Shown: piece after piece, positions 13,305 through 13,390 of the stretch
Position numbering within the stretch: the stretch's first letter is position 1
Layout of the letters: every line of letters starts with the position of its first letter
Assembly: GCA_964510365.1 (NCBI GenBank)
Contig: CAZEAR010000001.1
Coordinates: 1 to 42,117, forward strand
Source of the DNA: an uncultured Dehalococcoidales bacterium
Lineage (GTDB): Bacteria > Chloroflexota > Dehalococcoidia > GIF9 > UBA5629
Reading direction: 5' to 3'
Length of the DNA stretch: 42,117 nucleotides
Position numbers and translations under genes: made by a program
The notes under the pieces: generated by a model
Seen by the model: only the letters and a program-made list of their open reading frames with translations
What the model was told of the DNA's origin: nothing
Databases searched by the model: none

Positions 13305-13390
13305 TTGCCTAGGATCAGAGAGTCATGGGTTCGAGTCCCATTCAGATCTGAAAGGATTTGATAGCTCAGTGGGTAGAGCTTCTGAGGCAA
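13305..13390 (+). ncRNA. Circularly permuted tRNA-like element: tRNA 3' half, 5-nt linker, tRNA 5' half, with no anticodon loop
   Basis: 13315-19 TCAGA. 13320-24 five-nt variable loop. 13325-41 ATGGG-TTCGAGT-CCCAT (canonical T arm). 13342-48 TCAGATC. T13349. GAAAG linker. 13355-61 GATTTGA (pairs 7/7 with 13342-48, including one T-G). TA. 13364-79 GCTC-AGTGGGTA-GAGC (canonical D arm). T. 13381-85 TCTGA (pairs 5/5 with 13315-19). 13386-90 GGCAA pairs with 13305-09 TTGCC. Confidence 0.7.

What the first reader, a model, noticed from the sequence alone, without database searches (positions are those of the whole stretch)
13305..13390. Complete tRNA cloverleaf encoded in circularly permuted order, with no anticodon loop
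Read 5'->3', the locus encodes the following. First the anticodon-stem 3' strand TCAGA (13315-19) and a 5-nt variable loop. Then a canonical T arm, ATGGG-TTCGAGT-CCCAT, followed by the acceptor 3' strand TCAGATC and a discriminator-position T. A GAAAG linker comes next. After it are the acceptor 5' strand GATTTGA (7/7 pairs, one T-G), TA at positions 8 and 9, and a canonical D arm, GCTC-AGTGGGTA-GAGC, with A14, G18G19 and A21. Last is the anticodon-stem 5' strand TCTGA (5/5 Watson-Crick with 13315-19). Every tRNA element is present and mutually compatible, but the acceptor end is closed by a loop. The anticodon end is open and continues into a further helix (GGCAA 13386-90 with TTGCC 13305-09), leaving TAGGA bulged. 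No normal 5' half lies upstream and no T arm lies downstream. This topology matches the tRNA-mimicking module of bacterial and phage Y-RNA-like (YrlA-type) RNAs that partner with Rsr/Ro60, but I see no TROVE-domain gene in this genome. Alternatives are a genuinely permuted tRNA gene needing circularisation and processing (known in the red alga Cyanidioschyzon, not in phages), or a decoy for tRNA-targeting host defences or tRNA-modifying/processing enzymes.
Basis: partly seen in the sequence, partly recalled or inferred. Interest (0 to 1): 0.9.

Follow-up and report, generated by a model that had tools for sequence, protein, structure and literature searches.

The report
Permuted tRNA mimic inside phage RNA
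The rearranged, anticodon-less tRNA is real, and it is one branch of a much larger, previously undescribed folded RNA that many uncultivated phages carry, where related phages keep ordinary tRNA genes at the same spot.

Summary
Window 13305-13390 encodes T arm, closed 7-bp acceptor hairpin, D arm and an open 5-bp anticodon stem, with 21/21 pairs and all tRNA tertiary-contact nucleotides. ARAGORN calls a tRNA once the halves are re-permuted in silico. Rfam YrlA matches below threshold (36.7 bits, GA 69).

It is not a stand-alone Y RNA. The 42-kb genome is complete (55-bp terminal repeat) and no ORF of 400 aa or more has a TROVE domain. The YrlA Rsr motif GNCGAAN0-1G is absent.

The module sits in a variable slot of a ~381-nt RNA (13195-13575) that follows a DUF6847 gene. 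That RNA has a long 5'/3' closing helix, a double pseudoknot and an array of AAGG repeats. I found its 3' domain in 119 of 165 related contigs, and no Rfam 15 family matches it.

Among 98 non-redundant copies, 23 slots hold ARAGORN-called tRNAs, 10 hold permuted tRNA-likes, and the rest hold hairpins or only a T arm. Ten permuted modules covary in all four helices and in the 15:48 Levitt pair.

Best reading: a selectively maintained, covalently tethered tRNA mimic derived from a slot tRNA. Its function is unproven.

The parts
13195..13575 (+). Whole structured RNA (about 381 nt) that contains the finding. It starts 6 nt after the stop codon of the DUF6847 gene (12674-13189).
   Evidence: Home-made HMMs of the 5' motif and the 3' domain hit 61 and 119 of 165 related sequences. 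The 25-sequence MAFFT alignment A9 gives 90% of cells paired against 33-59% in the slid controls. The fold z-score is -4.4. The exact RNA ends are inferred from the closing helix.
13195..13213 (+). P1 5' strand (AGGACCTT + ACAAGTAGAGA). It pairs with 13557-13575.
   Evidence: RNAalifold and the pair counts: 7 of 9 core pairs have changes on both sides. The upstream extension covaries across the family (ccct/AGGG, tgccg/CGGCA, aatcat/ATGATT).
13557..13575 (+). P1 3' strand (TCCTACTTG, GG bulge 13566-67, AAGGTCCT). The simple scan had flagged part of it as a terminator.
   Evidence: Covariation supports 5'/3' pairing. The alternative local hairpin CTTCC/GGGAG is not compensated in relatives that have GGGCGG.
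13220..13233 (+). 5' strands of the double pseudoknot: CTGG 13220-23 (PK1) and TAAA..GGAG 13224-33 (PK2).
   Evidence: PK1 variants are CTGG/CCAG, TTGG/CCAA, CCGG/CCGG, CTGA/TCAG and CAGG/CCTG. A PK2 example is AAAGTGGAG/CTCCACTTT in L180.
13526..13541 (+). 3' strands of the pseudoknot, inside the P3 loop: CTCC-ATTTA 13526-34 and CCAG 13538-41.
   Evidence: helix 2 has 3 of 4 pairs and helix 3 has 6 of 9 pairs with changes on both sides.
13239..13258 (+). P2 hairpin GTAATTG-ACGATA-CAATTGC with the family-conserved CGATA loop.
   Evidence: A9 columns 39-58: 5 of 5 pairs covary. Also present in the MFE fold.
13264..13304 (+). Two lineage-specific hairpins in the variable slot: GCAGC...GCTGC 13264-84 and ACAGCT-ATGATAA-AGCTGT 13286-13304.
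   Evidence: MFE and centroid fold. They are not conserved in the relatives L285 and L286.
13305..13314 (+). Outer helix 5' strand TTGCC (13305-09; extendable to 13302) and the bulge TAGGA (13310-14).
   Evidence: The same outer helix plus 5' bulge is seen in L293 (TTGCT/AGCAA), L199 and L215. It is absent in L140, L258, L281 and L283.
13315..13349 (+). 3' 'half' of the tRNA-like domain: anticodon-stem 3' strand TCAGA, variable loop GAGTC, T arm 13325-41, acceptor 3' strand TCAGATC, discriminator T13349.
   Evidence: Covariation.
13350..13354 (+). GAAAG linker. Together with T13349 it forms the 6-nt loop that closes the acceptor end. This is the predicted RNase P / 3'-trimming site (inferred).
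   Evidence: Sequence. The analogy is to M. smegmatis YrlA, which has a 7-bp acceptor stem, is cut by RNase P and receives CCA (PMC4201824).
13355..13385 (+). 5' 'half' of the tRNA-like domain: acceptor 5' strand GATTTGA, T8 A9, D arm 13364-79, T26, anticodon-stem 5' strand TCTGA.
13386..13393 (+). Outer helix 3' strand GGCAA(TCA).
13399..13475 (+). AAGG-repeat array: five AAGG plus two A-N-GG, period about 7-8 nt. It is partly enclosed by the hairpin CACATTCTA 13392-13400 / TAGAATGTG 13452-60.
   Evidence: There are 5 AAGG in 90 nt against a genome average of 0.5. The family mean is 5.5 AAGG against 0.23 CCTT per 130 nt. Alignment A9 and inverted repeat I6.
13480..13499 (+). P4 hairpin TCTC...GC-GAAA-GC...GAGA with a GNRA tetraloop.
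   Evidence: Sequence. The equivalent hairpin is present across A9. It was not counted formally.
13506..13554 (+). P3 helix CCTGAAG-c-AAGTT (13506-18) with TACTTTTCAGG (13544-54). Its loop carries the pseudoknot 3' strands.
   Evidence: 5 of 11 pairs have changes on both sides and 96% of cells are paired.
12674..13189 (+). DUF6847 gene, the constant neighbour of the RNA. It is always on the same strand, usually just upstream and sometimes just downstream.
   Evidence: Pfam PF20935, 30.5 bits. 1371 homologues. Adjacency. The AF2 model has pLDDT 88.8 but no PDB fold match.

Best explanation
Window 13305-13390 is a genuine, selectively maintained tRNA-shaped domain. It contains the T arm, D arm, variable loop, a 7-bp acceptor-like stem closed by a 6-nt loop, and a 5-bp anticodon stem. 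It is not a gene for a decoding tRNA and it is not a free Y RNA.

It is grafted by its anticodon stem into the variable slot of a ~381-nt phage non-coding RNA (13195-13575) that is encoded on the same strand beside the DUF6847 gene, starting 6 nt after its stop codon, and is probably co-transcribed with it (inferred). That RNA folds with its 5' and 3' ends paired (P1). It also has a double pseudoknot (PK1/PK2 with the P3 loop) and an exposed array of AAGG repeats.

In related phages the same slot holds ordinary-order tRNA genes, permuted tRNA-likes, or only hairpins. The permuted module most likely arose from a resident slot tRNA by tandem duplication and deletion. Several relatives still carry discriminator-CCA remnants in the loop that closes the acceptor.

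Permutation changes what the tRNA-processing machinery can do. RNase P and RNase Z can cut an ordinary slot tRNA out. The permuted module stays covalently or base-pair tethered to the host RNA.

Inferred mechanism: the L-shaped elbow and the 7-bp acceptor/T stack make it a substrate or docking site for host tRNA-recognising enzymes (RNase P, TruB, Dus, CCA-adding enzyme), as shown experimentally for YrlA. Most likely RNase P nicks between T13349 and G13355, the 3' end is trimmed, and CCA may be added. That would give a two-piece RNA held together by P1, the pseudoknots and the tRNA-like stems, carrying a permanently attached tRNA mimic.

Shown here: the sequence, the fold compatibility, recurrence and covariation, the host RNA, and the absence of Ro60 partner features. 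Inferred: transcription, processing, and the identity of the binding partners.
For: - Fold completeness: reading; YrlA 36.7 bits, E 2.8e-6; ARAGORN calls tRNAs on the re-permuted window module and on 7 relatives, and on 0 of 5 shuffles.
- Recurrence: permuted modules without any ARAGORN tRNA occur in L140, L199/L229, L215/L049, L258, L280, L281, L283, L237 and L293, plus the topological variant L179.
- Covariation over 10 modules: 95% of cells paired against 33-47% in the slid controls. 16 of 21 pairs change on both sides: anticodon stem 5/5, acceptor 6/7, T 3/5, D 2/4.
- The Levitt pair covaries: G15:C48 in 8 modules, A15:U48 in L140 and L293.
- L281 and L283 have near-identical flanks but compensated stems (ATACA/TGTAT against ATAGA/TCTAT).
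- Host RNA. MAFFT alignment, 90% of cells paired, 26 of 38 pairs change on both sides, pseudoknots covary. Frequent G-U pairs in P1 and P3 (for example GU in 9 of 25 sequences at pair 5-323) would be C-A on the other strand, which fits transcription of the + strand.
- Same slot: tRNAs start 54-82 nt after the 5' motif and permuted modules 72-102 nt after it.
- Slot census: 23 tRNA, 10 permuted, 12 T-arm only, 53 none, of 98.
- CCA-type remnants in acceptor loops: L261 G-CCA-TTTT, L280 T-ACCA-T.
Against: - There are no expression, end-mapping or processing data.
- The closest relatives (71-74% DUF6847 identity; L285-L289, L125, L126) have the RNA core but not the permuted module. The window's own module therefore has no close homologue, and the slot turns over fast.
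- The 10 modules may descend from different tRNAs. 'Covariation' may then partly reflect repeated capture rather than compensatory evolution, and the alignment was fitted to the model.
- More than half of family members have no tRNA-like element, so the module is accessory to whatever the host RNA does.
- A 6-nt loop is a minimal leader/trailer for RNase P.
- The MFE fold of the isolated 106 nt is not exceptional (z = -1.0).
Confidence: 0.6

Rival explanations
1. A bona fide YrlA/Y RNA. The phage RNA recruits the host's Ro60 (Rsr) ring, with the tRNA-like module as the effector-binding part, as in bacterial and mycobacteriophage YrlA.
For: Same T arm / closed acceptor stem / D arm order. YrlA is the top Rfam hit in the window (36.7 bits) and in relatives (34-44 bits). 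A helix closes the module (13302-09 with 13386-93). The host is unknown and could encode Rsr.
Against: Scores lie far below the gathering score of 69, and the model's inner 7-bp stem is deleted. There is no GNCGAAN0-1G motif in 13190-13600 or in 7 of 8 relatives. No ORF of 400 aa or more in the complete genome has a TROVE domain. All 22 published phage YrlAs lie within 4 kb of a phage Ro60 gene. The module is an internal branch of a 381-nt RNA whose slot holds ordinary tRNAs in relatives.
Confidence: 0.08
2. A non-functional relic: two tandem copies of a slot tRNA that lost the 5' part of copy 1 and the 3' part of copy 2 and are on the way to decay.
For: Slot content differs even between the closest relatives. 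CCA-like remnants lie in some acceptor loops. Tandem tRNAs give the same T-then-D pattern across IMG/VR. 12 elements retain only a T arm.
Against: In the window all 21 pairs and every tertiary-contact base are intact, while nothing recognisable remains of the missing halves. The same break point in the anticodon stem recurs in 10 lineages spanning 47-100% DUF6847 identity. L281/L283 and the 15:48 pair show compensation. Most acceptor stems are kept at 7 bp.
Confidence: 0.17
3. A circularly permuted tRNA gene, as in Cyanidioschyzon merolae, whose transcript is circularised and re-opened to give a decoding tRNA.
For: The 3' half precedes the 5' half. The acceptor junction lies in a short loop of the kind RNase P and RNase Z process in algae.
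Against: No anticodon loop can be reconstructed: the flanks would give GGUAGGA, which lacks U33. There is no bulge-helix-bulge motif, only one 5-nt bulge on one strand. The splicing endonuclease is, to my knowledge, not a bacterial enzyme. The flanks continue into conserved host-RNA structure.
Confidence: 0.02
4. A two-piece (permuted) tmRNA: an acceptor piece followed by a coding piece, with the downstream 190 nt acting as the mRNA-like domain.
For: The gene order (T arm, acceptor 3' strand, spacer, acceptor 5' strand, D region, long downstream RNA) is that of permuted ssrA. Some relatives encode a tmRNA elsewhere (L237 806-1161).
Against: ARAGORN, whose one search run searches tRNA and tmRNA genes, finds none. 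There is no Rfam tmRNA hit at E up to 10. The 3:70 pair is U-A, not the G-U needed for alanine charging. A full D stem and anticodon stem are present, and no tag reading frame is seen. The downstream domain is conserved in members that lack any tRNA-like part.
Confidence: 0.02
5. An attP or integration-site remnant carrying part of a host tRNA gene.
For: Phage attP sites often contain the 3' part of a tRNA, from the anticodon stem to the 3' end.
Against: No integrase was found among about 40 scanned ORFs. A matching 5' half follows directly. The element lies inside a covarying RNA structure.
Confidence: 0.01

Closest known systems
YrlA (Y RNA-like A; Rfam RF02553), the tRNA-like module of bacterial and mycobacteriophage Y RNAs
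   Same: The order is T arm, closed acceptor-like stem-loop, D arm. There is no anticodon loop. tRNA tertiary-contact nucleotides are conserved, including a covarying 15:48 pair. A helix closes the module at the anticodon end. A 7-bp acceptor stem is present, as in M. smegmatis YrlA, which is cut by RNase P and receives CCA.
   Different: There is no Ro60/TROVE gene nearby or anywhere among the large ORFs of the genome. The GNCGAAN0-1G Rsr motif is absent. The score is half the Rfam gathering score. It is not an 80-130-nt RNA but a branch of a 381-nt pseudoknotted RNA. The same position in relatives holds ordinary tRNAs.
GOLLD (and ROOL) large ornate phage/prophage RNAs
   Same: A large, phage-encoded, highly structured RNA with a conserved core and a variable region that can contain tRNAs. 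Function unknown.
   Different: There is no match to the GOLLD or ROOL models. It is much smaller (240-425 nt against about 600-800). Its architecture is different: P1 closing helix, double pseudoknot, AAGG array, constant DUF6847 neighbour. The slot can hold a permuted, non-excisable tRNA mimic.
Two-piece (circularly permuted) tmRNA
   Same: Permuted order of the tRNA-like halves, with an acceptor junction that processing could open. The result would be a two-piece RNA held together by pairing.
   Different: No G3:U70, no tag ORF and no SmpB-type reduced D region. Not detected by ARAGORN or by the Rfam tmRNA model.
Permuted tRNA genes of Cyanidioschyzon merolae and some other algae and archaea
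   Same: The 3' half is encoded upstream of the 5' half of one cloverleaf.
   Different: Those yield decoding tRNAs through BHB-dependent circularisation. Here there is no anticodon loop and no BHB motif, and the flanks are part of a larger conserved fold.
CsrB/RsmZ-type protein-sponge RNAs (comparison for the host RNA only)
   Same: Many short purine repeats in one RNA. In some relatives the last repeats read CAAGGATGT, close to the CsrA SELEX consensus as I recall it (own knowledge).
   Different: Most repeats are AAGG[C/T], not GGA in hairpin loops. Only about 2 GGA occur in the window's array. There are no Rfam Csr/Rsm hits. The RNA has a large pseudoknotted core.

Membership tests
YrlA / bacterial Y RNA | Encoded within about 4 kb of, and on the same strand as, a Ro60/Rsr (TROVE-domain) gene | tested here: not met
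   Pfam scans of about 40 ORFs, including all 11 ORFs of 400 aa or more, found no TROVE domain. The genome is complete, with a 55-bp terminal repeat. Criterion taken from PMC4201824.
YrlA / bacterial Y RNA | GNCGAAN0-1G motif near the 5' end (proposed Rsr contact) | tested here: not met
   A regex scan found none in 13190-13600; the nearest is at 12944, inside the coding sequence. None was found in 7 of 8 permuted relatives.
YrlA / bacterial Y RNA | tRNA-like domain made of T arm, acceptor-like stem-loop, D arm and variable region, with tRNA tertiary nucleotides | tested here: met
YrlA / bacterial Y RNA | Reaches the Rfam RF02553 gathering score (69 bits) | tested here: not met
   36.7 bits in the window, with the model's inner stem deleted. 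Relatives score 34-44 bits.
YrlA / bacterial Y RNA | Binds Ro60/Rsr | not testable with these tools
   This needs immunoprecipitation, and the host is unknown.
Canonical tRNA gene | Contiguous acceptor, D, anticodon and T arm order with a 7-nt anticodon loop | tested here: not met
   ARAGORN finds 0 genes in the window. Rfam tRNA gives 16.7 bits against a gathering score of 29. It is recognised only after in-silico re-permutation with an added loop.
Permuted tRNA gene (C. merolae type) | A bulge-helix-bulge motif at the termini and a reconstructable anticodon loop | tested here: not met
   By reading: there is a single 5-nt bulge (TAGGA) on one strand only. Joining the flanks gives a loop without U33.
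Two-piece tmRNA | G3:U70 alanine identity pair, a tag reading frame, and detection by tmRNA models | tested here: not met
   The 3:70 pair is U-A. ARAGORN finds no tmRNA. There is no Rfam tmRNA hit at E up to 10.
GOLLD / ROOL | Match to the family covariance model | tested here: not met
   There are no hits at the gathering score in the window, at E up to 10 in 13000-13800, or at E up to 0.01 in 12 family loci.
GOLLD / ROOL | Homo-oligomeric RNA cage | not testable with these tools
   This would need cryo-EM or native gels.
New DUF6847-associated RNA family (proposed here) | P1 closing helix, PK1/PK2 pseudoknot with the P3 loop, P2 with a CGATA loop, AAGG array, and adjacency to a DUF6847 gene on the same strand | tested here: met
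   Window coordinates are listed under 'parts'.

The most novel reading that the evidence does not exclude
The 381-nt element is the founding example of a new class of large, pseudoknotted phage RNAs with an exchangeable 'tRNA slot'. In about a tenth of members the slot tRNA has been circularly permuted, so it can no longer be released. The RNA then carries a permanently tethered tRNA mimic next to an array of about 5-10 Shine-Dalgarno-like AAGG repeats. On this reading the RNA is an RNP or scaffold, possibly with DUF6847, that docks on the host translation or tRNA-processing machinery. That would be a Ro60-independent second use of the YrlA-type fold.
Probability: 0.3. Interest if true: 0.85.

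Novelty: new variant of a known kind. Interest (0 to 1): 0.72.

Why it matters
Until now, permuted anticodon-less tRNA mimics in bacteria and phages were described only as the effector half of Ro60-bound YrlA RNAs. Here the same fold recurs, with compensatory changes, in phages that have no Ro60 gene and no Rsr-binding motif, and it sits inside a different and larger RNA. This suggests the tRNA-mimic module has a function of its own that can be moved between RNA scaffolds.

The host RNA is widespread. Its protein neighbour has over 1300 homologues in the protein search, and I found the RNA's 3' domain in 119 of 165 sequences examined. It covaries strongly, matches no Rfam 15 family, and occurs only in uncultivated phages.

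The family also offers a natural series: an empty slot, a releasable tRNA, and a tethered permuted tRNA. That series could show why large phage RNAs such as GOLLD associate with tRNAs. It also gives testable substrates for RNase P, TruB and the CCA-adding enzyme.

Tried and rejected
- A blastn 'distant' search of 13150-13650 against INPHARED phages found nothing. tblastn of the DUF6847 protein also found nothing, so no cultured relative or host is known.
- The GTDB scan returned only MAG contigs binned to many unrelated phyla. These are probably mis-binned phage contigs, and the host remains unresolved.
- The IMG/VR pattern scan for T loop followed by D arm returned mostly tandem tRNA arrays. 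The ten 'closed acceptor' hits outside the family lie in tRNA islands and none reaches the YrlA threshold.
- MAFFT alignments of the modules (A3-A5) put gaps inside the acceptor strand and were discarded. I instead built a single-sequence covariance model R1 from the window plus the cloverleaf, and used its alignments. Counts on such fitted alignments lean towards the structure.
- The DUF6847 structure was predicted well (pLDDT 88.8), but Foldseek against the PDB gave only helical-bundle noise (E above 0.3). No function could be inferred.
- The 'intrinsic terminator' at 13546-13570 is better explained as P3 plus the 3' strand of P1.
- The short ORFs 13243-13401 and 13432-13581 were rejected as genes. 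The region aligns with indels that are not multiples of three and with compensatory pairs.
- Literature searches for DUF6847, for permuted tRNAs in phages, for phage tRNA-like anti-defence RNAs and for new ornate phage RNAs found no description of this RNA.
- CsrA sponge: considered and not adopted, because few repeats contain GGA.
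Full report
**Observation.**
- TTGCC 13305-09 and the TAGGA bulge 13310-14
- anticodon-stem 3' strand TCAGA 13315-19 and variable loop GAGTC 13320-24
- T arm ATGGG-TTCGAGT-CCCAT 13325-41
- acceptor 3' strand TCAGATC 13342-48, discriminator T13349 and linker GAAAG 13350-54
- acceptor 5' strand GATTTGA 13355-61 and T8 A9
- D arm GCTC-AGTGGGTA-GAGC 13364-79 and T26
- anticodon-stem 5' strand TCTGA 13381-85 and GGCAA 13386-90

All 21 pairs form. The bases that make the tRNA L-shape are present: U8, A14, G15:C48, G18, G19, A21, G46, T54-A58, U55, C56, G53-C61. 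ARAGORN finds no tRNA or tmRNA in the native window, and Rfam at gathering thresholds finds nothing. With permissive thresholds the best match is YrlA (RF02553) at 13304-13394: 36.7 bits, E 2.8e-6, full-length model but with its inner 7-bp stem deleted. The tRNA model reaches only 16.7 bits. ARAGORN then calls a 76-nt tRNA with three different loops, and none of five shuffled controls is called.

**Genome context.** The window is a complete circular phage assembly with a 55-bp exact terminal repeat. It carries a replication module (Rep O, DnaB, RusA, exonuclease, HNH), a capsid-like protein and a nonulosonic-acid sugar cluster spanning the ends. No TROVE domain and no integrase appear in about 40 scanned ORFs, which include every ORF of 400 aa or more. 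The YrlA Rsr-contact motif GNCGAAN0-1G, as defined in PMC4201824, is absent from 13190-13600.

**A much larger RNA.** The module lies in a ~410-nt gap after a DUF6847 gene (12674-13189). That protein has 1371 homologues. I fetched 80 metagenome loci, 80 IMG/VR loci, 16 GTDB loci and 5 contigs of the closest relatives. Home-made HMMs of a 5' motif (ACAAGCAGAGATAAAAACTGGCAAAAGGAAGCG) and a 3' domain hit 61 and 119 of 165 sequences (164 loci plus the window excerpt). The hits are on the same strand as the gene, usually just downstream of it and sometimes just upstream.

A MAFFT alignment of 25 minimal members (240-305 nt; A9), RNAalifold and explicit pair counting with pseudoknots support five helices:
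- P1, a 5'/3' closing helix
- P2, with a conserved CGATA loop
- P3
- PK1 (CTGG/CCAG; variants TTGG/CCAA, CCGG/CCGG, CTGA/TCAG, CAGG/CCTG)
- PK2 (AAAAGGAAG/CTTTCTTTT; for example AAAGTGGAG/CTCCACTTT in L180), which pairs the 5' region with the P3 loop

Overall 90% of cells are paired against 33-59% when partners are slid. 26 of 38 pairs change on both sides, and 0 of 500 shuffles reach the observed values. P1 extends upstream with clear covariation (ccct/AGGG, tgccg/CGGCA, aatcat/ATGATT) around a conserved GG bulge. In the window this gives 13195-13213 pairing with 13557-13575, so the RNA spans about 13195-13575. The 'terminator' flagged is really P3 plus the P1 3' strand. Frequent G-U pairs in P1 and P3 would be C-A on the other strand, which fits + strand transcription.

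Between the slot and the 3' domain lies an array of AAGG repeats. The window has 5 in 90 nt against a genome mean of 0.5. The family mean is 5.5 AAGG against 0.23 CCTT per 130 nt. The whole window RNA folds with z = -4.4. No Rfam 15 family matches the core, either in the window or in 12 family loci at E up to 0.01. Four literature searches found no description of it.

**The slot.** The tRNA-like module occupies a variable region between P2 and the AAGG array. The census of 98 non-redundant elements gives:

| Slot content | Elements |
|---|---|
| ARAGORN-called, ordinary-order tRNA | 23 |
| Permuted tRNA-like | 10 |
| Only a T-arm-like hairpin | 12 |
| Nothing tRNA-like | 53 |

The ordinary-order tRNAs include Arg, Gln, Asn, Leu, Thr and Ser. 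About half have unusual anticodons or 6-nt loops. The IMG/VR relative L121 (58% protein identity) has a contiguous tRNA-like element at the same site: Rfam tRNA 45.1 bits, a 6-nt anticodon loop, and no ARAGORN call. The closest relatives overall (71-74% identity: L285-L289, L125, L126) keep the core but have no permuted module. The slot therefore turns over quickly.

**Recurrence and covariation of the permuted form.** A scanner for the permuted form and a single-sequence covariance model R1 find permuted modules with no ARAGORN tRNA alongside. The only exception is one doubtful tRNA-Ser call that overlaps the L199 module. The modules are in L140, L199/L229, L215/L049, L258, L280, L281, L283, L237 and L293. 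All are opened at the anticodon stem like the window.
- L179 differs: it has a closed anticodon arm and is opened before the T arm.
- L237 carries a chain of overlapping modules.

On the 10-sequence alignment A11, 95% of cells pair against 33-47% when slid. 16 of 21 pairs change on both sides: anticodon stem 5/5, acceptor 6/7, T 3/5, D 2/4 (similar). This alignment is fitted to the model, and the modules may derive from different tRNAs, so the numbers show that the architecture is maintained or re-created rather than strict homology.

Other evidence does not depend on that alignment:
- The 15:48 Levitt pair is G:C in eight modules and A:U in L140 and L293.
- L281 and L283 share near-identical flanks but have compensated anticodon, T and acceptor stems.
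- ARAGORN accepts all eight tested modules after re-permutation.
- Most acceptor stems are exactly 7 bp.
- The outer helix with a 5' bulge recurs in L293 (TTGCT/AGCAA), L199 and L215, but not in all members.
- Some acceptor loops keep discriminator-CCA remnants (L261, L280), pointing to an origin from tandem tRNA copies.

**Interpretation.** The element works like the tRNA-like half of YrlA but fails the YrlA membership tests. It has no Ro60 gene, no Rsr motif, a sub-threshold score, and it is a branch of a 381-nt RNA. It is not a decoding tRNA, a C. merolae-type permuted gene (no BHB motif, no rebuildable anticodon loop), a two-piece tmRNA (3:70 is U-A, no model hit) or an attP remnant (no integrase).

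I consider it a selectively maintained, tethered tRNA mimic that derives from a slot tRNA. M. smegmatis YrlA has a 7-bp acceptor stem, is cleaved by RNase P and receives CCA in vivo, and TruB and DusA modify Salmonella YrlA (PMC4201824). By that analogy the most likely biochemical consequence is recognition by host tRNA enzymes, with nicking between T13349 and G13355. The result would be a two-piece RNA held together by P1, the pseudoknots and the tRNA-like stems. This step is inferred.

GOLLD RNAs, which sometimes carry phage tRNAs in their linker (PMC12286853), are the closest precedent for the host RNA. No GOLLD or ROOL model matches it.

The function of the host RNA and of DUF6847 remains open. 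The AF2 model has pLDDT 88.8 but finds no PDB fold match.

**Verdict.** The finding is a new variant of a known kind: a YrlA-type tRNA mimic without Ro60. It is embedded in what appears to be an undescribed, strongly covarying phage RNA family with a tRNA slot.

Noticed in passing
window 13195-13575 (and L125-L305): A conserved 240-425-nt pseudoknotted RNA lies next to DUF6847 genes in uncultivated phages. It has a P1 closing helix with a GG bulge, a double pseudoknot, a CGATA loop and an AAGG-repeat array. No Rfam 15 family matches it and the searched literature does not describe it.
   Followed up: yes
window 13399-13475; family alignment A9 columns about 150-230: About 5-10 AAGG/ANGG repeats with a period of about 7-8 nt occur on the + strand only. 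In some relatives (L132, L151, L184) the last copies read CAAGGATGT, close to the CsrA SELEX consensus as I recall it (own knowledge). The binding partner is unknown.
   Followed up: partly
slot tRNAs in L153, L160, L250, L257, L282, L157, L238, L159, L178, L197, L207, L161, L121: About half of the ordinary-order 'tRNAs' in the slot have 6-nt anticodon loops or unusual anticodons (A34 types, UCA), and many do not start with G1. They may also be mimics rather than decoders.
   Followed up: partly
L237 2016-2190 and 806-1161: L237 has a chain of overlapping tRNA-like modules (T arm, acceptor hairpin, D arm, closed anticodon arm, T arm, acceptor hairpin, D arm) upstream of the 5' motif. The same contig also encodes a full tmRNA (116 bits).
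   Followed up: partly
window 1-55 and 42063-42117: An exact 55-bp terminal direct repeat shows that the window is a complete circular assembly of about 42,062 bp.
   Followed up: yes
window 37608-41512 and 172-2508: A phage-encoded nonulosonic-acid (pseudaminic/legionaminic-type) sugar pathway spans the assembly ends: GNAT, PseB-like dehydratase, NeuB, HIT, CMP-sugar cytidylyltransferase, GFO/IDH oxidoreductase and DegT aminotransferase.
   Followed up: no
L286 2084-2485, L288 2022-2408, window 13243-13401 and 13432-13581: In L286 and L287 a called gene of 133 aa lies across the structured RNA, and in the window two short ORFs do. Both are likely false protein predictions. L288's 128-aa gene lies elsewhere, because there the RNA is upstream of the DUF6847 gene.
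   Followed up: partly
window 13480-13499: A conserved P4 hairpin is capped by a GAAA (GNRA) tetraloop, which could be a tertiary-contact element.
   Followed up: no
window 22905-23255 (-): A small ORF has an ArdC N-terminal (anti-restriction) domain. It lies in a short minus-strand gene block.
   Followed up: no
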